IMG/VR virus record: IMGVR_UViG_3300029212_000224
Origin: a virus
Taxonomy: Duplodnaviria > Heunggongvirae > Uroviricota > Caudoviricetes
Length of the DNA: 5,531 bases
Strand: one strand, 5' to 3'
The translations under genes were made by a program, and so were the position numbers. The notes below the pieces were generated by a model that saw only the letters and a program-made list of their open reading frames with translations, was not told where the DNA came from and did not search any database. Shown here piece by piece: positions 1 to 5,531 of the stretch. Each line of letters starts with the position of its first letter. Position 1 is the stretch's first letter.

Positions 1-19
1 CTATTTGATAAATATTAAA

Positions 20-1315
20 TTAATTTTTCATTGCTTCGTTATGGGGCATGGTTGGGGCAAACTCGCTTAACTGTGTATTTAACAAAGCTACCTGTGCATT
101 ATTGTTTTCAGACATCCATTTTCCGTATACCTGAAATACCATTTGCGCATCTGCATGGCCCATCTGGTTTGCTATAAATGCCGGGTTAGCACCAGCTGTC
201 AGCGACCAGCAGGCATAAGTATGTCTCGACTGATATGATTTTCGATGGCGGAGTCCGGCACGTTTTATCGCTGCGTCCCACATCTGCCTTATTGAGTCAA
301 CGGTAAAATGGTCACCATAATTTTTTACTCTCGCTGACACTTCAGGTTGAAAAACAAAGGTGCATTTTTGTTTTTCTGTTCTGCCATACTCTCTGAGGTG
401 AACATCAATGATATGCTCTTTGCTCAGTCTCGTTAATGTCATCTGACTCCGGAGAGCGTCGATTGCTGGCTTAATAAGATGAATGACCCGATTGGTTCCC
501 GCCTGTGTTTTTGGTACCGTGAAACGGTCTTTTGCTAAATTTCTCCTGATCATCATTGTTCCATTTTTCAGATCTATGTCCTCCCATCCAAGTGCACACA
601 GCTCACCAGGGCGAACGCCAGTATAAACAGAAACACACCATAAATTTTTTGCTTGCTGATTTCTGCACGCATCGATAAGACGGATAAATTCCTCCCGCGA
701 AAGAGGATCCGGAATGGTTCTTGATTCCTTTAATGGCGAGATCCCCTTAAACGGATTATCTGCCAGGTAACCGTTATCAACACCAAACTGGAACACGGCG
801 TTAAGATTTGTTATGTAATTATTTACAGTTACAGCCGATCTCCCTGGTTGTGTAACAATATAGTTACTTTTGGGGATCTGGTATCCAGTCAGTAGCTCTT
901 TACGAACCTCCAGTAATTTTTCTTTATTAATCGATGAGGCAAGATTTTTTTCACCGATTATGCTCAGGATATTTTTGATGACGGCACGGTATGTGTTGAG
1001 TGATGTTTTGGCGACTTCAGTTTCTTTCAGTGCCAAAAATTTTTCAGCCAGTTCTTTTATGGTTAAATCTTGTCGGGCCTCACCAAATTTTTCCAGATTG
1101 CGTGAGGAGGGAAACTGTTTTGCATAGTCGAAAACACCAGTTTTTATTGCGTAACAAACAGAGGAGCGTAGTTCACCTGCAACGCGCCTGTTTTTTGATG
1201 TGTCAGGAACCCCCAGATTTTCCCTGACTCTTACGCCTTTATAAACAAACCAGATACGTAATTTCCCTCCATGGTTTTCCACGCCTGTCGGATATTTCAT
1301 TTCAACTTCTCTCAT
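20..1315 (-). CDS. int: phage-type tyrosine integrase (site-specific recombinase)
   Basis: 431-aa ORF. N-terminus (MKYPTGVENHGGKLRIWFVYKGVRVRENLG) looks like an integrase arm-binding domain. C-terminal catalytic region has GVRPGE (Arg box), SRHTYACW (H/R box) and MGHADAQMVFQVYGKW with the putative catalytic Tyr at nt 125-127. The start may be the second ATG at 1298-1300 (MKYPTG...), which has a purine-rich GAGAAG stretch upstream; the first ATG at 1313-1315 has no obvious SD. Confidence 0.9.
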   Translation of the reverse strand: MREVEMKYPTGVENHGGKLRIWFVYKGVRVRENLGVPDTSKNRRVAGELRSSVCYAIKTGVFDYAKQFPSSRNLEKFGEARQDLTIKELAEKFLALKETEVAKTSLNTYRAVIKNILSIIGEKNLASSINKEKLLEVRKELLTGYQIPKSNYIVTQPGRSAVTVNNYITNLNAVFQFGVDNGYLADNPFKGISPLKESRTIPDPLSREEFIRLIDACRNQQAKNLWCVSVYTGVRPGELCALGWEDIDLKNGTMMIRRNLAKDRFTVPKTQAGTNRVIHLIKPAIDALRSQMTLTRLSKEHIIDVHLREYGRTEKQKCTFVFQPEVSARVKNYGDHFTVDSIRQMWDAAIKRAGLRHRKSYQSRHTYACWSLTAGANPAFIANQMGHADAQMVFQVYGKWMSENNNAQVALLNTQLSEFAPTMPHNEAMKN

Positions 1316-1334
1316 TAGTTAGTGTGGCTTTTAG

Positions 1335-1586
1335 TCAAGTAAGATGACGTCTTGGTCTCGCTGATGCCTGGCGCTCAATCCAGCGATCAATTTCTTCCAG
1401 GTTGTAAAAGCATGGACTGTTATCCCATGGCATACCGTCATGAGCGACATGCTTATATTCCCTTCCTTCCATAAACGATTTTTCCCGGGCCTTTTTTAAC
1501 GTACCTTTTTTTATTCCTTTCAGCGCAATTAACTGCTCTTCGGATACCCATTTGCCGGGAGAGACAATCATGATTACTTCGCTCAT
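1335..1586 (-). CDS. xis: excisionase-like small DNA-binding protein (Xis-like)
   Basis: 83-aa ORF immediately upstream of int on the same strand, 19-nt gap, the classic xis-int arrangement. Contains a GREY motif (MEGREYKHVAHDG) reminiscent of lambda Xis (DGREYLF). AAGAGATAAAGAAA purine-rich region precedes the ATG. Assignment is by context and motif only. Confidence 0.7.
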   Translation of the reverse strand: MSEVIMIVSPGKWVSEEQLIALKGIKKGTLKKAREKSFMEGREYKHVAHDGMPWDNSPCFYNLEEIDRWIERQASARPRRHLT

Positions 1587-1615
1587 CGATTTCTTTATCT
1601 CTTACATCAGACGAG

Positions 1616-1647
1616 CGCCGGTTGCAGAATACCAGTCACAACCGGCG
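1616..1647 (-). other. perfect 9-bp inverted repeat (stem-loop) between the exonuclease gene and xis
   Basis: CGCCGGTTG (1616-1624) and CAACCGGCG (1639-1647) separated by a 14-nt loop, lying 11 nt after the exonuclease stop codon and 29 nt before the xis start. No U-tract follows on the transcribed strand, so it is not a canonical intrinsic terminator. Confidence 0.4.
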
Positions 1648-1658
1648 ACAGTTGAACA

Positions 1659-3728
1659 TTAAGAATCAGCCTGACTCGGGATCAGTTTTTGCCAGATAAC
1701 TGAAACGTATTTTGCCTGGTAACGGGCGTCATCAAGTGCATTATGGCGCTCACCTTCGAATGGAATAGCCGTTCTGGCATCGAAGTCTATGGCTTTCCCC
1801 AGCTCAACGATTGTGCGTACATCGCGATCGTTGTAGTAACGCCACGGGCAGGGGATCCCCTGCCGTTCGTATGAACGGCGCAAAATCGTGTTGTCGAAGT
1901 TGGCTCCATTTCCCCAAACCTGAACAAAAAATTCACCGGAGTTTTCGTCGATAAATTCCCGCAATTGTAACAGTGCATCATCTAACGGGATTTCATCGGT
2001 CATAATGGCAGATTGCGCTTCGCGTGATTGCTTAAGCCACCATTTAATGGTGTCCCGATCAATGACTCCGCCAGCAGTTTCCAGATCGATAGTCTTACTA
2101 AATTCCGGTCCCATATCTCCGGTTTGCGGATCGAAAAATATTGCACCTATTGAGATGATCGGGGCATCAGGATTTTTTCCCATGGTTTCAAGGTCGATCA
2201 TTAGATGGTCACACGTCCTGCTGGTGGATGTGATTTCGTGATGACCGTTCACCTTAATTGGGTGATCTGCCGTCTCGCCAGTTTCATTATCGCTATTGTG
2301 ATGCTGATTGCCGCCAGTGTTCTCCTTGTGTGGATGTTCAGCGCCTTCCATTTCCTCCGGATCATCTTCCTGAACTTCAACCTGATACTCTTCATCGAAT
2401 GTTTCTTGGTATGTTGCGTCGCCCATCACCGCGCCACAATCAGGGCAGTTGCCGCCGCCGGTCTGACCGCAGGCGGTGCAGGCTTTTTCCACTTCCTGTT
2501 GCGCCACTGGTTCAGGCTGTTTCGTTTCTGGCTCGTTTTGTAACGCATTTGGACTGTTTTGTTCCGCTTTTTGGTAGTTCCGTTCCGATTCATGCTGGTT
2601 CTGGTTCACAGAATCGCGGGTCTGGATCCCCTTAACCCATTTCGGATCATTCGGGTCACTAATCCCTTCAACAAATTCACCACGTGATGCAGCAAGCAAC
2701 TTATCGGCGTCAGGCTGGCTGATATTGGCTGCCTGCATAATTTTGTTTACTTCGTCAGCGGTAACTTTTATCGGCTCTGGTTGTTCTGAATCTTCAGCGG
2801 TATCTACATTTTGCGGTAAGCCCGTGTATGTGCCATTTTTTCGGGCAAAATATTCTTCTTTTGTGATTTCAGTGGCGCCAGCAGCCAGTGCCTTATCCAG
2901 ACCAGAAAGTTTGTTTGCGCGACCGTATTTTTCTCCGTCCTTATCTGCGAAGAGGAAATAGAACGGCCCCTCACGCTCTACAGATGGTTCAGCTTCCGGC
3001 GCGGTTTCATTTTTTGGGATATCAGATACCTCAGTTTCCACTGCATCAGTTTGTGTTTCTGATGACTGGAGAACAGCAACAGTGCCCAGGTCTGTTTCTT
3101 CATTCTCAAACACGCCCTTTGTCGTCAGGTATTCGCAGATATATTTGTTCAGTGCTACGGGATCTTTGTGAATGTCGATCGGACGCTCACGGACAAGGCC
3201 AAAAATAGTTTGGCGGTCGTAGCGAAGGGCATCAGGCTGTTTGCGTATTGATGCCGAGATACGCTTCCAGTCTTCGCGGTCGTTGTCGATAACTTCTTTT
3301 TTTGCCCAGCGATGGATGCTGCCGTCAATGTTTCCGGCATCCACATCACCAGGGCAGAGAGCGTAGGCCAGTTCGTCATCCAGTGTTTTCCATGTCTGCT
3401 TGTATTCGCGATGAATGGCAGCAATGACCGAGCTGATTTTTCCTGTTGAATTTTCAGTGTACTGTTGATTGGCTCTGGCGCGGGCGAGATCAACAACAGA
3501 CGTGTATTTTCCGGTTTCCTTGCGTTCACCTTCGCGACGTTTTTTCCAGATGCGCATCTCTGCCTGAATTTCGGGCCATTTAGCACCAGGAATACATTTA
3601 TGCTTAACCCACCCAATGGCGTGCAACTTAAGCTCCGGATACATGGCGTTAACTTCTGGCATTTTCATCAACGCTTCAACGATATGTCCGTCGAATGTTG
3701 CCATGTCTTTGAAAGAGCGCCCGAACAT
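1659..3728 (-). CDS. multidomain protein with C-terminal DEDDh (DnaQ-like) 3'-5' exonuclease domain; of the kind often annotated as exodeoxyribonuclease VIII-like in prophages
   Basis: 689-aa ORF. C-terminal domain (about aa 505-689, nt 1662-2216) carries the full DEDDh motif set: MIDLETMG (D512, E514), GNGANFDNTIL (D612), ERHNALDDARY (H662, D667). A CxxC-x7-CxxC zinc-ribbon-like motif (CTACGQTGGGNCPDC) lies at nt 2436-2480, flanked by acidic low-complexity linkers. Start is uncertain: no SD before the first ATG (3726-3728), and an in-frame stop sits 3 codons upstream (3735-3737). Confidence 0.8.
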   Translation of the reverse strand: MFGRSFKDMATFDGHIVEALMKMPEVNAMYPELKLHAIGWVKHKCIPGAKWPEIQAEMRIWKKRREGERKETGKYTSVVDLARARANQQYTENSTGKISSVIAAIHREYKQTWKTLDDELAYALCPGDVDAGNIDGSIHRWAKKEVIDNDREDWKRISASIRKQPDALRYDRQTIFGLVRERPIDIHKDPVALNKYICEYLTTKGVFENEETDLGTVAVLQSSETQTDAVETEVSDIPKNETAPEAEPSVEREGPFYFLFADKDGEKYGRANKLSGLDKALAAGATEITKEEYFARKNGTYTGLPQNVDTAEDSEQPEPIKVTADEVNKIMQAANISQPDADKLLAASRGEFVEGISDPNDPKWVKGIQTRDSVNQNQHESERNYQKAEQNSPNALQNEPETKQPEPVAQQEVEKACTACGQTGGGNCPDCGAVMGDATYQETFDEEYQVEVQEDDPEEMEGAEHPHKENTGGNQHHNSDNETGETADHPIKVNGHHEITSTSRTCDHLMIDLETMGKNPDAPIISIGAIFFDPQTGDMGPEFSKTIDLETAGGVIDRDTIKWWLKQSREAQSAIMTDEIPLDDALLQLREFIDENSGEFFVQVWGNGANFDNTILRRSYERQGIPCPWRYYNDRDVRTIVELGKAIDFDARTAIPFEGERHNALDDARYQAKYVSVIWQKLIPSQADS

Positions 3729-4122
3729 CGATGTTCAGCGTGTCACAGATGAAGGTGGCGCGGTTGATCAGCGAGCGCTTGGCGTTAATCGAGTGAAGAT
3801 ATTCGAACGCTGGAAGGCTATCGACACTAGGGATAAGCGTGAAAAGTTCACGGCGCTAGTGCCTGCAATTATGGAGGCTATCCGGATTAATGATTTCAGG
3901 TTGTATCGTGAAATTAGTGACGGAAAAAGCATCACGTACATGATCGCCGGGTTAAACAAAGAATATGGCGATGTGGTGGAGTCCGGACTGCTTTTTGCTG
4001 ATCCTGCCGTAGTGGATCGTGAAACTGACGAACTTATAGAAAAAGCAATTGCTTTCAAACTTGCGTATCGACAGCAATACCAACAAAAAGCTGGATGGAA
4101 TTATGAGCCTTCTTTTTGCTGA
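3703..4122 (+). CDS. hypothetical protein, start uncertain, possibly 5'-truncated
   Basis: Protein-like composition from about 3703 onward (SLKERPNIDVQRVTDEGGAVDQRALGVNRVKIFERWKAIDTRDK...). The tracked ORF begins at 3616, but 3616-3702 overlaps the opposite-strand exonuclease gene and translates to an antisense-looking, Ser/hydrophobic-rich peptide. No SD at any candidate start (ATG 3616, 3703, 3871; GTG 3793). The 3' end overlaps the next gene by 20 nt, which suggests translational coupling. No recognisable family. Confidence 0.45.
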   Translation: MSLKERPNIDVQRVTDEGGAVDQRALGVNRVKIFERWKAIDTRDKREKFTALVPAIMEAIRINDFRLYREISDGKSITYMIAGLNKEYGDVVESGLLFADPAVVDRETDELIEKAIAFKLAYRQQYQQKAGWNYEPSFC

Positions 4123-5068
4123 ACGCCCACTGGTTATAAACACACAGCTTGCGATGAAGATTGGCTTAAATGAAGCCATTGTGTTGCAGCAGTTGCATTA
4201 CTGGTTGAGAGATACCAATTCCGGCATGGAATGTGATGGTGTTCGCTGGATTTACAACACAACGGAACAATGGCTGGAACAGTTCCCATTCTGGTCAGAG
4301 TCAACGTTAAAGCGCGCGTTTGCAAGTCTGAAAACGCTGGGGCTTTTGCGTTGTGAAAAGCTCAATAAATCAAAGCGCGATATGACCAATTTCTACACGA
4401 TCAACTATGGGAGCGAGCTTTTAGATGGTGGCAAATTGAACGAATCCATCGGTTCAAAATGCGCCGCTCCATCAGGTCAAAATGACACGATGGAAGAGGT
4501 CAAAATGAAACGCTCCATTGGTTCAAAACGACCCAATGTCATCGGGTCAAAATGGCCTGATGATCTTACAGAGAATACAACAGAGATTACTACAGAGAAT
4601 AAAAACACTTTTCGTCCGGAAGCTTCGCAACCGGACCCGCAGACCGCTGAACAGGATTTTTTAACCCGGAACCCCGACGCGGTTGTGTTTAGTGCGAAAA
4701 AACGCCAGTGGGGTAGCAGGGAGGATTTGGCGTGTGCGCAGTGGATTTGGGGGCGGATCGTGAACCTTTACGAACAGGCTGCCAGCGACGATGGAGAGAT
4801 CATGCGACCAAAAGAGCCTAACTGGACAGCCTGGGCCAATGACGTGCGCACAATGCGGATGCTGGATGGCAGAAGCCACAGACAAATTTGCGAAATGTTT
4901 GGTCGGGTACAGCGAGATCCATTCTGGGTAAAAAACATCATGAGCCCGTCAAAACTCCGCGAAAAATGGGACGAACTGGTCATCCGCTTGGGACGTTCAC
5001 CTGTACAGCGTTGTGTGAATCATATTTCTGAACCGGATACAGAAATTCCGCCTGGTTTCAGGGGATAA
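4103..5068 (+). CDS. phage replication initiator: N-terminal winged-helix DNA-binding domain plus C-terminal DnaT-like (primosomal protein I-like) domain
   Basis: Tracked ORF starts at a TTG (4049); the first ATG at 4103 (MSLLFAERPLVINTQLAMKIGLNEAIVLQQLHYWL...) is the more likely start. The N-terminal region resembles origin-binding domains of phage initiators. The C-terminus ends ...VNHISEPDTEIPPGFRG, which matches my recollection of the E. coli DnaT C-terminus (...SEPDSQIPPGFRG). A direct-repeat array lies in the interdomain linker, as in lambda O. Confidence 0.8.
   Translation: MSLLFAERPLVINTQLAMKIGLNEAIVLQQLHYWLRDTNSGMECDGVRWIYNTTEQWLEQFPFWSESTLKRAFASLKTLGLLRCEKLNKSKRDMTNFYTINYGSELLDGGKLNESIGSKCAAPSGQNDTMEEVKMKRSIGSKRPNVIGSKWPDDLTENTTEITTENKNTFRPEASQPDPQTAEQDFLTRNPDAVVFSAKKRQWGSREDLACAQWIWGRIVNLYEQAASDDGEIMRPKEPNWTAWANDVRTMRMLDGRSHRQICEMFGRVQRDPFWVKNIMSPSKLREKWDELVIRLGRSPVQRCVNHISEPDTEIPPGFRG
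4446..4554. repeat. candidate replication-origin iteron array (5 direct repeats, 23-bp period)
   Basis: Direct repeats with core GGT(T)CAAAA(T/C)G at 4448-4461, 4471-4484, 4494-4507, 4517-4530 and 4541-4554; spacing 23, 23, 23, 24 bp. A degenerate sixth copy may lie at about 4424-4437 (GATGGTGGCAAATTG). The repeats fall in different reading frames of the host ORF (IGSK / SGQN / EVKM), so conservation is at the DNA level. Confidence 0.6.
4566..4606. repeat. A-rich ACAGAGA(A/T)T triple repeat, possible DNA-unwinding element next to the iterons
   Basis: ACAGAGA at 4568-4574, 4580-4586 and 4592-4598 (12-bp period), followed by AATAAAAACA. It sits immediately 3' of the iteron array, mirroring the iterons-then-AT-rich layout of lambda ori. 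It is in frame (encodes TENTTEITTENKN), so a protein-level repeat cannot be excluded. Confidence 0.4.
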
Positions 5069-5096
5069 GTGTTGATTTCAGGTCATGAGGTAATTT

Positions 5097-5103
5097 TAAG
5101 GAG
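5097..5103 (+). promoter_or_regulatory. Shine-Dalgarno sequence for the 5109 ORF
   Basis: AAGGAGG located 5 nt upstream of the GTG start at 5109. Confidence 0.65.
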
Positions 5104-5108
5104 GACTT

Positions 5109-5531
5109 GTGGCAAAAGTTTTTACACAGGAAGAGCGGGAAAAAATTAAAGAGCAGGTGGTCGAACTTGTGCGCCAGAGCGGTCGCGAGACATTACGACA
5201 GTTGGAAGCTAAAACAGGTGCGACAAGATATCTGATGAGCATTCTTGCCAGAGAGCTGGTTGCCAGTGGTTATGTATACAACTCCGGCTACGGGTTATTC
5301 CCGTCTGAACAGGCACGAAAGGACTGGCAAAATGCCCGCAAAAAACTCTCTAGGGCGAAGGTGAAGAAACCCGCTGTGGTTGATCCGGACCTTATCTGGT
5401 CACTACCTGATGGAGAAATACGTCGCTACGACAGTCGTCTAAACATAATCTGTCGCGAGTGCCGGAAGAGCGAAGTTATGCAGCGCATATTGTCGTTTTA
5501 TCAGGGAAATGTTCGGTATCTATTTAAGTGA
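5109..5531 (+). CDS. hypothetical small protein with putative winged-helix N-terminus
   Basis: 140-aa ORF with GTG start at 5109, preceded by a canonical AAGGAGG SD at 5097-5103 (5-nt spacer). N-terminal segment RETLRQLEAKTGATRYLMSILARELVASGYV has HTH-like character, followed by a basic stretch (ARKKLSRAKVKKP). Stop codon TGA at 5529-5531 is the last codon of the window. Not a DnaC or P-type helicase loader (no Walker A). Confidence 0.7.
   Translation: MAKVFTQEEREKIKEQVVELVRQSGRETLRQLEAKTGATRYLMSILARELVASGYVYNSGYGLFPSEQARKDWQNARKKLSRAKVKKPAVVDPDLIWSLPDGEIRRYDSRLNIICRECRKSEVMQRILSFYQGNVRYLFK

What the first reader, a model, noticed from the sequence alone, without database searches (positions are those of the whole stretch)
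1659..3728. Large recombination-module protein carries a 3'-5' DEDDh exonuclease, not a RecE/lambda-Exo type 5'-3' nuclease, and has no annealase partner in the window
Proteins at this position in lambdoid prophages (upstream of xis-int) are usually 5'-3' exonucleases paired with an annealase (RecE/RecT, Exo/Bet). This protein ends in an intact DEDDh 3'-5' exonuclease domain (D512, E514, D612, H662, D667), preceded by a zinc ribbon and long acidic linkers, and no RecT/Bet/Erf-like gene lies between it and the replication module. A 3'-5' polarity would not generate the 3' overhangs an annealase needs, so the protein may do something other than classical recombination, for example DNA-end processing, anti-defense or host takeover.
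Basis: partly seen in the sequence, partly recalled or inferred. Interest (0 to 1): 0.6.

Follow-up and report, generated by a model that had tools for sequence, protein, structure and literature searches.

The report
Truncated prophage 3'-5' exonuclease gene
This is a deletion-damaged copy of a very common E. coli prophage gene whose protein joins the non-catalytic body of the RecE recombination nuclease to a 3'-to-5' exonuclease and is never encoded next to an annealing partner; the domain call is right, the gene family is already catalogued, and its biological role is still untested.

Summary
The ORF (1659-3728, minus strand, 689 aa) and its C-terminal DEDDh exonuclease are real: Pfam Rv2179c-like scores E=1.8e-67, and D512/E514/D612/H662/D667 align with the T4 DexA catalytic residues. 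The four-Cys ribbon and the acidic linker are present, and the window holds no annealase.

The ORF is not an intact gene. Compared with otherwise 100%-identical E. coli loci, the window has a 3,083-bp deletion. It removed native codons 1-140 of an 823-codon gene, altered codon 141, and removed ydfD, dicB, DicF, the repressor, cro and the start of ydaT.

The intact protein belongs to the YdfE family: a RecE-like scaffold with the RecE PD-(D/E)XK head replaced by a DEDDh head. The lack of an annealase is conserved across about 90 loci, Escherichia/Shigella plus four other enterobacterial genera. RecE-type relatives have recT immediately downstream.

The DEDDh head occurs in 75% of complete E. 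coli genomes; the RecE head occurs in 32%. A third head on the same scaffold has a Rad52 fold, which ties the scaffold to recombination.

The function of the family is untested. The family is already annotated, and DnaQ-type nucleases next to int were noted in 2025. Interest is moderate to low.

The parts
1659..3728 (-). 689-codon ORF. It is a 5'-truncated remnant of an 823-codon YdfE-family prophage exonuclease gene: 6 novel codons, 1 junction codon and native codons 142-823.
   Evidence: ORF list. phrog_2082 'exonuclease' profile positions 141-822 of 823 match aa 7-688. blastn against the intact locus L001. RefSeq annotates the intact gene as exonuclease or 3'-5' exonuclease.
1692..2207 (-). 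DEDDh (DexA / Rv2179c-like) 3'-5' exonuclease head, aa 508-679. Catalytic residues D512, E514, D612, H662 and D667.
   Evidence: Pfam PF16473 E=1.8e-67. PDB sequence match to 8kel/8ken, T4 DexA, E=1.5e-6 (identified via PMC12153337). Invariant columns in alignment A1.
2229..2435 (-). Acidic, His-rich linker (aa 432-500) between the zinc ribbon and the exonuclease head.
   Evidence: 12-14 Asp/Glu and 0-1 Lys/Arg per 40 residues. Nearly identical to RecE 535-592.
2436..2480 (-). Four-Cys motif CTAC-x7-CPDC (aa 417-431), a putative zinc ribbon.
   Evidence: Regex on the translation. Conserved in RecE as CNAC-x7-CPDC. Metal binding was not tested.
2250..3347 (-). Region homologous to the non-catalytic middle of RecE (aa 128-493, matching RecE 278-592). 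It is part of the YdfE_C scaffold.
   Evidence: BLASTP E=4e-62, 39% identity overall and near-identical from the DKLLAASRGEFV block to the end of the linker. NCBIfam RecE model matches partially, 286 bits against a cut-off of 1269. Precomputed Pfam PF27432 YdfE_C on close homologues.
3707..3709 (.). Deletion junction (3-bp microhomology CTT) joining exonuclease codon 141/142 to ydaT codon 36. 3,083 bp are missing relative to intact loci.
   Evidence: blastn coordinates and sequence comparison. A junction-spanning query finds no one-piece match in 5,426 complete E. coli genomes. A 37-mer across the junction is absent from IMG/VR and JGI metagenome contigs. The arrangement is unique among 99 loci.
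3616..4122 (+). Chimeric ydaT' ORF: 30 codons read from the antisense of the exonuclease gene, a junction codon, then native YdaT/CII-like codons 37-173. It overlaps the exonuclease ORF head-to-head over 3616-3728.
   Evidence: Pfam YdaT_toxin and phrog_163 CII-like matches. Frame arithmetic. tblastn.
1335..1586 (-). Excisionase (DUF1233 type). It starts 72 bp downstream of the exonuclease stop codon, leaving no room for an annealase gene.
   Evidence: Pfam PF06806 E=1.6e-31 and phrog_539. Same spacing in L001 and HannyBb.
20..1315 (-). Tyrosine integrase of the prophage. The prophage is inserted next to rspB in the intact locus.
   Evidence: Pfam Arm-DNA-bind_2 and Phage_integrase. L001 annotation.
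4049..5531 (+). Start of the replication module: O-like initiator (annotated start at 4103) and a DUF977/Ren-like gene (5109-5531).
   Evidence: phrog_391, Pfam DUF977 and phrog_142. L001 annotation.

Best explanation
SHOWN
- The ORF is a deletion-truncated copy of a YdfE-family early-left gene of a Qin/Kim-like lambdoid prophage of E. coli.
- The intact 823-aa protein is modular. It has an N-terminal alpha/beta domain (YdfE_N, lost here), a helical scaffold (YdfE_C), a small beta/alpha domain, a block with a four-Cys ribbon and an acidic linker that is almost identical to RecE, and then a DexA/Rv2179c-type DEDDh exonuclease. The exonuclease sits exactly where RecE carries its PD-(D/E)XK 5'-3' nuclease.
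- In intact prophages the gene lies at the end of the leftward early operon: repressor, ydfA, DicF, dicB, ydfD, exonuclease, xis, int.
- It has no annealase, SSB or anti-RecBCD partner in any locus examined.

INFERRED
- The head is a Mg-dependent exonuclease that removes nucleotides from 3' ends.
- The scaffold is also used by RecE and by a Rad52-fold annealase fusion. It brings whichever head it carries to the same DNA substrate or host partner during lytic growth.
- The DEDDh version therefore most likely trims 3' ends of phage DNA ends or recombination/replication intermediates, in lambdoid phages that have no Rec module and depend on host RecA/RecBCD.

THIS COPY
- It has lost the N-terminal domain, its own start codon, the early-left promoter/operator region and the repressor.
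- It has no sigma-70-like promoter, so it is probably silent or inactive.
For: Identity and truncation.

Catalytic residues.

RecE relationship: homology ends at the boundary of the RecE nuclease domain.

Modular family:
- Only 204 cluster representatives among 1.84 billion proteins match the scaffold.
- Among the 57 representatives of 450 aa or more that were typed, the heads are DEDDh, PD-(D/E)XK or a third type. Both N-terminal types (YdfE_N, Exonuc_VIII) occur with DEDDh and PD-(D/E)XK heads.
- The third-head genes are flanked by a Gam-like gene and a Gp157 gene.

Partner pattern: recT follows the gene in 6 of 6 RecE-type loci. None of 89 DEDDh-type loci has an annealase, nor do four other genera or the whole HannyBb genome.

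Stand-alone homologues sit inside Rec modules in epsilon34 and Bas106, as PMC12315714 also states for epsilon34.

HannyBb has 7 Chi sites against about 1.7 expected. This fits the class of Chi-rich lambdoid phages without a Rec module described in that paper.

No promoter-like site lies in window 1500-4300. DicF and the immunity genes lie in the deleted segment.
Against: - No biochemical or genetic data exist for this family. Literature searches found none.
- Substrate (DNA or RNA) and polarity are inferred from homology alone. The Pfam family is named after an exoribonuclease.
- 3'-5' exonucleases usually inhibit recombination in E. coli (statement in PMC12315714).
- The authors of that paper do not count DnaQ-type genes next to int as Rec-module genes.
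- Stand-alone homologues also occur outside Rec modules.
- The 80 IMG/VR loci are 92-100% identical to one another, so they are not independent observations.
- The annealase screen used six seed proteins plus Pfam/PHROG labels, so an unrecognised annealase family could be missed.
- The scaffold model comes from a relative about 33% identical to the intact E. coli protein, not from the window protein.
- The promoter scan is a simple consensus scan; read-through transcription is possible.
Confidence: 0.5

Rival explanations
1. Superinfection defence or exclusion nuclease (HREX-like). The DEDDh head degrades the modified (5hmC-type) DNA of incoming T-even phages, as reported for the stand-alone E. 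coli DexA homologue EcD.
For: PMC12153337 reports that the E. coli DexA homologue EcD cleaves T4 DNA and protects cells. The window head matches T4 DexA in sequence. The head is retained in 75% of complete E. coli genomes, up to 7 copies each, often in cryptic prophages.
Against: The residues named for 5hmC recognition are not kept: DexA W152 aligns with Y632 and D169 with A646. The tetramer residue D90, which EcD replaces by Ala, is retained as D584. The alignment is uncertain in those loops. There are no PADLOC hits. The gene lies in the repressor-controlled early-left operon rather than in a lysogen-expressed moron position. EcD is a stand-alone protein and lacks the RecE-like scaffold.
Confidence: 0.15
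2. Exoribonuclease or anti-defence enzyme. The head degrades RNA or nucleic-acid immune molecules (for example retron or reverse-transcriptase products, or signalling oligonucleotides) rather than acting on phage DNA ends.
For: The best Pfam family is named after the mycobacterial 3'-5' exoribonuclease Rv2179c. RefSeq often names the protein a 3'-5' exoribonuclease. The gene is solitary, with no recombination partner.
Against: The only solved structures found by sequence search are of the DNA exonuclease T4 DexA. The scaffold is shared with a DNA exonuclease (RecE) and with a Rad52-fold ssDNA annealase. Close stand-alone homologues sit in DNA recombination modules. No known anti-defence family matched.
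Confidence: 0.12
3. Classical RecE-like recombination exonuclease whose annealase partner was lost here by the deletion.
For: The window does carry a 3.1-kb deletion next to the gene. The protein shares its middle region with RecE.
Against: The deleted segment in intact loci holds ydfD, dicB, DicF, ydfB/A, the repressor, cro and the 5' end of ydaT, and no annealase. In Rac, recT lies downstream of recE, on the side that is intact here and is occupied by xis after 72 bp. No DEDDh-type locus has an annealase. The nuclease fold differs from RecE.
Confidence: 0.03
4. The family is selfish or decaying baggage with no current function, and the ORF is kept open by chance.
For: This copy is truncated and lacks a promoter. 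The K-12 copy (ydfE) is also a fragment. Many partial database entries exist.
Against: Full-length 823-aa copies dominate, including one cluster of 23,183 member sequences. The catalytic residues are invariant out to T4 DexA. The architecture is conserved in at least five genera with 50-60% sequence divergence. An isolated, plaque-forming phage carries the intact gene.
Confidence: 0.1

Closest known systems
RecE (exonuclease VIII) of the Rac prophage, with RecT
   Same: Same kind of locus: a large early-left gene a short way upstream of xis-int in a lambdoid prophage. The central region is homologous (39% identity over about 370 aa). The block from DKLLAASRGEFV through the CxxC-x7-CxxC ribbon to the acidic linker is nearly identical.
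   Different: The C-terminal head is DEDDh (3'-5') instead of PD-(D/E)XK (5'-3'). The N-terminal domain is YdfE_N rather than Exonuc_VIII. No recT follows the gene. The NCBIfam RecE equivalog model scores far below its cut-off.
T4 DexA (PDB 8KEL/8KEN) and the E. coli stand-alone homologue EcD ('HREX', PMC12153337)
   Same: Same DEDDh fold family, with all five catalytic residues aligned.
   Different: Only 26% identity to DexA. The window head is fused to a scaffold of about 630 aa. The residues named for 5hmC recognition and for the dimer/tetramer switch do not follow the EcD pattern.
Stand-alone DnaQ-like nucleases of lambdoid and P22-like phages (epsilon34 gp34, Bas106_0031, mEp460 gp26, ST64B 'endodeoxyribonuclease')
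   Same: 56-60% identical to the window head. They lie in the early-left operon, some directly next to xis/int.
   Different: They are about 180-190 aa with no scaffold. In epsilon34 and Bas106 they are packed between the SSB (or an endonuclease) and Abc2, next to an Erf-like annealase.
YdfE of E. coli K-12 (Qin prophage; Pfam YdfE_N PF27430 and YdfE_C PF27432)
   Same: Same gene family. In the two K-12-like genomes fetched (L013, L014; ECDA1023, ECGI0523), the ydfE position holds the first ~256 codons of this gene. Close homologues of the window protein carry both Pfam domains.
   Different: K-12 keeps the N-terminal fragment and lacks the head. The window keeps the head and lacks the N-terminal domain.
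'RecE-2' proteins (PMC12315714), annotated as exodeoxyribonuclease VIII in Enterobacter, Klebsiella and Citrobacter
   Same: Same YdfE_N and YdfE_C scaffold (about 30-35% identity) and the same position upstream of xis-int.

Membership tests
DEDDh / DnaQ-like exonucleases, Rv2179c-like subfamily (PF16473) | Profile match above the curated threshold over the whole domain | tested here: met
   226.9 bits against a cut-off of 27, profile positions 2-177 of 177, aa 508-679.
DEDDh / DnaQ-like exonucleases, Rv2179c-like subfamily (PF16473) | Exo I (DxE), Exo II (D) and Exo III (H-x4-D) catalytic residues | tested here: met
   D512/E514, D612 and H662/D667 align with DexA D7/E9, D119 and H186/D191 and are invariant in A1.
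DEDDh / DnaQ-like exonucleases, Rv2179c-like subfamily (PF16473) | 3'-5' exonuclease activity and substrate (DNA or RNA) | not testable with these tools
   Needs purified protein and end-labelled substrates.
RecE / exodeoxyribonuclease VIII (NCBIfam NF007259 equivalog) | Full-length match above the equivalog cut-off | tested here: not met
   286 bits against a cut-off of 1269. Only profile positions 446-600 match.
RecE / exodeoxyribonuclease VIII (NCBIfam NF007259 equivalog) | C-terminal PD-(D/E)XK 5'-3' nuclease domain (PF12684) | tested here: not met
   Present in K-12 RecE and absent here.
RecE / exodeoxyribonuclease VIII (NCBIfam NF007259 equivalog) | Adjacent recT annealase gene | tested here: not met
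   xis starts 72 bp after the stop codon. None of 89 DEDDh-type loci has RecT; all 6 RecE-type loci do.
RecE / exodeoxyribonuclease VIII (NCBIfam NF007259 equivalog) | Shared central region with four-Cys ribbon and acidic linker | tested here: met
   BLASTP E=4e-62, native aa 262-627 against RecE 278-592.
YdfE family (Pfam YdfE_N PF27430 + YdfE_C PF27432) | YdfE_C scaffold domain | tested here: met
   Precomputed PF27432 on homologues 87-92% identical over 99% of the query; name. This model is not in the local Pfam copy, so membership rests on these close homologues.
YdfE family (Pfam YdfE_N PF27430 + YdfE_C PF27432) | YdfE_N N-terminal domain | tested here: not met
   Native residues 1-140 are deleted in the window. 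N-terminally shorter database entries (661-752 aa) also lack PF27430. In the model of a relative, the breakpoint maps to the end of the N-terminal alpha/beta block.
HREX defence nuclease (EcD type, PMC12153337) | Trp and Asp/Glu equivalents of DexA W152 and D169 kept, and D90 replaced so that tetramers cannot form | tested here: not met
   Y632, A646 and D584 occupy those columns. The alignment in these loops rests on 4 sequences, so the result is tentative.
HREX defence nuclease (EcD type, PMC12153337) | Selective cleavage of 5hmC DNA and protection against T4 | not testable with these tools
   Needs an experiment.
Lambda Red / canonical lambdoid Rec module | Exo-type nuclease together with an annealase, with or without SSB and anti-RecBCD genes, in the early-left operon | tested here: not met
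   No hits to lambda Exo, Bet or Gam, P22 Erf or Abc2, or the epsilon34 Erf-like protein or SSB, in the window or in any DEDDh-type locus.

The most novel reading that the evidence does not exclude
The YdfE/RecE scaffold may be a general docking platform for phage recombination that accepts interchangeable heads: a 5'-3' nuclease, a 3'-5' nuclease or a Rad52-like annealase. On this reading the solitary DEDDh version, present in three quarters of complete E. coli genomes, is the sole phage-encoded DNA-transaction enzyme of lambdoid phages that lack a Rec module. It would drive a reverse-polarity (5'-overhang) or host-dependent end-processing route that has not been described for lambdoid phages.
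Probability: 0.25. Interest if true: 0.65.

Novelty: new variant of a known kind. Interest (0 to 1): 0.38.

Why it matters
- The N-terminal two thirds of RecE are dispensable for its nuclease activity and their role is unknown (own knowledge of the RecE literature). A small family in which the same scaffold carries a 5'-3' nuclease, a 3'-5' nuclease or a Rad52-fold annealase gives a direct handle on what the scaffold does, through head swaps and partner pull-downs.
- A fifth of the lambdoid phage panel in PMC12315714, and about half of the lambdoid prophages in Bobay et al. 2013 as quoted there, have no recognisable recombination module. This gene is the only DNA-transaction gene found in the early-left operon of one such isolated phage (HannyBb), so it is a candidate for how they cope.
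- On the practical side, the family is annotated inconsistently as exonuclease, 3'-5' exoribonuclease or exodeoxyribonuclease VIII. The annealase-headed relatives are misnamed as nucleases.
- For this particular window the message is more modest: the copy is a broken remnant.

Tried and rejected
- Exact-product look-up of the 689-aa ORF found nothing on record.
- The junction was sought in complete E. coli genomes, IMG/VR and JGI metagenomes and was absent from all three. Whether the deletion is natural, strain-specific or an assembly artefact could not be settled.
- Sequence-only tests of the third head were weak. The PDB profile search found no RAD52. Pfam Rad52_Rad22 was sub-threshold at E=0.0036. 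hhalign aligned only a 22-residue motif.
- The head-only model built from 5 sequences reached only pLDDT 66 and was not used further.
- The PADLOC defence library gave no hit for the window protein.
- Rfam found nothing in the window.
- Three literature searches were wasted on word collisions ('RecE' matching 'receptor', 'Qin' as an author name) or a syntax error.
- 'Rv2179c' with 'prophage', and 'ydfE' with 'prophage', returned no functional study.
- I first assumed epsilon34 gp36 was Sak4. PHROGs shows it is Erf-like.
- The first P22 fetch missed the erf region.
- A full-length model of the E. coli protein itself was not made.
Full report
WHAT THE WINDOW IS

The window is the left arm and the start of the replication module of a Qin/Kim-like lambdoid prophage of E. 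coli. The genes are:
- integrase (20-1315, minus strand)
- DUF1233 excisionase (1335-1586, minus strand)
- the 689-codon ORF of the finding (1659-3728, minus strand)
- a YdaT/CII-like ORF (plus strand)
- an O-like replication initiator
- a DUF977/Ren-like gene

Megablast finds the whole window at 99.9-100% identity in many complete E. coli genomes, but always in two or more pieces that span about 8.6 kb or more. In strain AREA_C483 the locus lies next to rspB. Its gene order is int, xis, exonuclease (823 aa, WP_059330971), ydfD, dicB, ydfB, ydfA, HTH repressor, then cro, ydaT, O-like gene and DUF977 on the other strand.

THE DELETION

- Window 1-3709 equals L001 6001-9709, and window 3707-5531 equals L001 12793-14617. 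The joint is a 3-bp overlap, CTT.
- The window therefore lacks 3,083 bp. The missing segment holds native codons 1-140 of the exonuclease gene (codon 141 is altered), ydfD, dicB, the DicF sRNA (Rfam 72.5 bits in L001), ydfB/A, the repressor, cro, the divergent early promoter region, and the first 35 codons of ydaT.
- The ATG of the 689-aa ORF and its first six codons (MFGRSF) are read from the antisense strand of ydaT. Codon 7 spans the joint.
- In the other direction, the ydaT remnant acquires 30 new N-terminal codons from the antisense strand of the exonuclease gene. The two ORFs overlap head-to-head over 3616-3728.
- A junction-spanning 301-bp query has no one-piece match in 5,426 complete E. 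coli genomes.
- The exact 689-aa product is not on record.
- A 37-mer across the joint is absent from IMG/VR and JGI metagenome contigs.
- The gene order is unique among the 99 sequences compared, the window included.
- No sigma-70-like promoter is found between 1500 and 4300 on either strand.
- This copy is therefore a remnant with no promoter and no N-terminal domain, in a prophage that has lost its immunity region.

CHECK OF THE OBSERVATION

- The C-terminal domain call is solid. Pfam PF16473 (Rv2179c-like) matches aa 508-679 with E=1.8e-67.
- The only solved structures found by sequence are 8KEL/8KEN. These are T4 DexA (PMC12153337).
- D512, E514, D612, H662 and D667 align with DexA D7, E9, D119, H186 and D191. 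They are invariant in an alignment with two stand-alone phage homologues.
- CTAC (417-420) and CPDC (428-431) form a four-Cys motif. Residues 421-480 are strongly acidic.
- No annealase is encoded in the window.
- The proposed RecE homology is real but lies elsewhere. Native residues 262-627 (window 128-493) match RecE 278-592 with E=4e-62.
- Identity is near-complete from the DKLLAASRGEFV block through the ribbon and linker. The match stops where the RecE PD-(D/E)XK domain begins.
- The RecE N-terminal domain PF06630 is not present. The NCBIfam RecE equivalog model is far below its cut-off.

A MODULAR FAMILY

- A full HMMER scan of 1.84 billion cluster representatives with the non-nuclease part (aa 7-500) finds only 204 relatives.
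They share a middle scaffold, which Pfam calls YdfE_C.
- The N-terminal domain is either YdfE_N or Exonuc_VIII.
- The C-terminal head is one of three kinds: DEDDh, PD-(D/E)XK, or a third head with no Pfam match.
- Both N-terminal types occur with DEDDh and PD-(D/E)XK heads. For example, Exonuc_VIII plus DEDDh is abundant in Citrobacter, Atlantibacter, Kluyvera and Salmonella.
- The third head carries the motif KKSLTDAxKKALSLLGF. This recalls the Rad52 motif KEAVTDGLKRALRSFG, which I quote from memory. Sequence tests were only suggestive.
- These proteins are annotated 'exodeoxyribonuclease VIII'. They are probably the 'RecE-2' proteins that PMC12315714 describes as lacking a nuclease domain. 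They lie between a Gam-like gene and a Gp157 gene, upstream of xis-int.
- The scaffold is therefore found attached to a 5'-3' resection nuclease, to a 3'-5' nuclease, or to a Rad52-fold annealase domain.
- Mapping the window protein onto the model places the deletion breakpoint at the end of the N-terminal alpha/beta block.

NEIGHBOURHOOD SURVEY

The canonical order is DUF977, O, ydaT, cro, then repressor, ydfA, (DicF), dicB, ydfD, exonuclease, xis, int.

Loci examined:
- 89 loci encoding the DEDDh head, among 98 fetched loci: GTDB genomes of E. coli, E. ruysiae, E. albertii and Shigella; 80 IMG/VR prophage contigs; the isolated phage HannyBb; and vB_EcoS-813R8.
- None of these has a RecT, Red-beta, Erf, Erf-like, SSB, lambda Exo, Gam or Abc2 homologue within about 7 kb.
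- All six RecE-type loci have recT immediately downstream.
- The small early-left ORFs of HannyBb and vB_EcoS-813R8 match only PHROGs of unknown function.
- The complete 45-kb HannyBb genome contains none of the seed families. It has 7 Chi sites against about 1.7 expected.
- Divergent DEDDh fusions in Atlantibacter, Kluyvera, Citrobacter and Salmonella sit in an even shorter operon (repressor, Rrf2-like gene, exonuclease, xis, int), again without a partner.

Caveats: the IMG/VR loci are near-identical, and the screen depends on known annealase families.

Prevalence: the DEDDh head DNA is in 4052 of 5426 complete E. coli genomes, with up to 7 copies per genome. The RecE head is in 1730.

Stand-alone homologues (56-60% identical) occur in two kinds of context. 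Some lie inside canonical Rec modules: epsilon34 and Bas106 have an Erf-like annealase, SSB, (an endonuclease), the DEDDh gene and Abc2. Others lie outside: mEp460 next to xis, Vibrio VP58.5, and a P2-like Klebsiella phage.

LITERATURE

[quoted passage not shown] It adds that sporadic DnaQ-type genes lie 'very near int' and are not counted as Rec-module genes.
- PMC12153337 (NAR 2025) solves the T4 DexA structure. It reports that a stand-alone E. coli homologue, EcD, cleaves 5hmC DNA and protects against T4 ('HREX').
- The window head does not follow the EcD residue pattern: Y632, A646 and D584 occupy the DexA W152, D169 and D90 columns (tentative alignment).
- PADLOC has no match.
- No paper in the searchable library addresses YdfE function.

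MECHANISM

Shown:
- the domain architecture
- the intact catalytic residues
- the RecE-type scaffold
- the conserved solitary gene context
- the truncation of this copy

Inferred:
- The head removes nucleotides from 3' ends.
- The scaffold brings it to the same substrate or partner as RecE and as the Rad52-fold fusion.
- The protein therefore processes phage DNA ends or recombination/replication intermediates in phages that rely on host recombination.

3'-5' resection leaves 5' tails. These can still anneal, as in 3'-5'-exonuclease-driven single-strand annealing by the vaccinia DNA polymerase and in exonuclease-III-dependent in vivo cloning in E. coli (both from my own knowledge, not tested here). 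Polarity alone therefore does not exclude recombination.

Rivals are an HREX-like defence nuclease, an exoribonuclease or anti-defence enzyme, loss of a partner by deletion (contradicted by the survey), and decay without function.

VERDICT

The missing annealase is a conserved feature of the family.
In E. coli it is the majority type, it is already annotated as a 3'-5' exonuclease with its own Pfam scaffold families, and it was noted in print in 2025.
- What remains open, and moderately interesting, is the function of a scaffold that swaps a 5'-3' nuclease, a 3'-5' nuclease and an annealase.

Noticed in passing
window 3707-3709 (junction); deleted segment = L001 9710-12792: A 3,083-bp deletion with 3-bp microhomology (CTT) removes the immunity region (repressor, cro, early promoters), dicB, ydfD, DicF, ydfA/B and the 5' ends of both flanking genes. 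The junction was found in none of 5,426 complete E. coli genomes, nor in IMG/VR or JGI metagenome contigs.
   Followed up: yes
window 3616-3728, both strands: The two truncated genes each gained a new start codon from the other's antisense strand. This gives two head-to-head overlapping chimeric ORFs: exo' with 6 novel codons and ydaT' with 30 novel codons. No promoter-like site or obvious Shine-Dalgarno sequence precedes either.
   Followed up: partly
[not shown]
   Followed up: yes
window 2250-2700 (aa ~340-493) versus K-12 recE (L002 5787-8387): A block of about 150 aa (DKLLAASRGEFV..., zinc ribbon, acidic linker) is nearly identical between this protein and Rac RecE, while the flanks are diverged or unrelated. 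It looks like a recent recombination joint just upstream of the exchangeable head.
   Followed up: partly
window 2220 (+ strand); L001 8220; HannyBb (L115) 26330: A Chi octamer (GCTGGTGG) lies inside the exonuclease gene just before the DEDDh domain and is conserved in the intact loci. The complete phage HannyBb has 7 Chi sites against about 1.7 expected from base composition, and no Rec module.
   Followed up: partly
L013 and L014 7001-7363 (K-12-like genomes ECDA1023, ECGI0523): In these two K-12-like genomes, the Qin prophage position corresponding to K-12 'ydfE' holds the first ~256 codons of this same exonuclease gene. These genomes and the window therefore keep complementary fragments: the N-terminal part there, the head here.
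   Followed up: partly
RefSeq annotations under: Product names for one family vary between 'exonuclease', '3'-5' exonuclease', '3'-5' exoribonuclease (domain-containing protein)' and 'exodeoxyribonuclease VIII'. The last name is wrong for both the DEDDh-headed and the Rad52-headed members.
   Followed up: no
L001 14935-16422 (outside the window): In the intact reference locus a P-loop ATPase of the Sll1717 family follows the DUF977 gene, then a hokD remnant and IS3. It may be a defence-type cargo gene and was not examined.
   Followed up: no
window 20-1315 and 4049-5068: The longest ORFs for the integrase (431 aa) and the O-like protein (339 aa, TTG start) are longer than the RefSeq gene models (426 aa and 321 aa). 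The upstream starts are probably not used.
   Followed up: no
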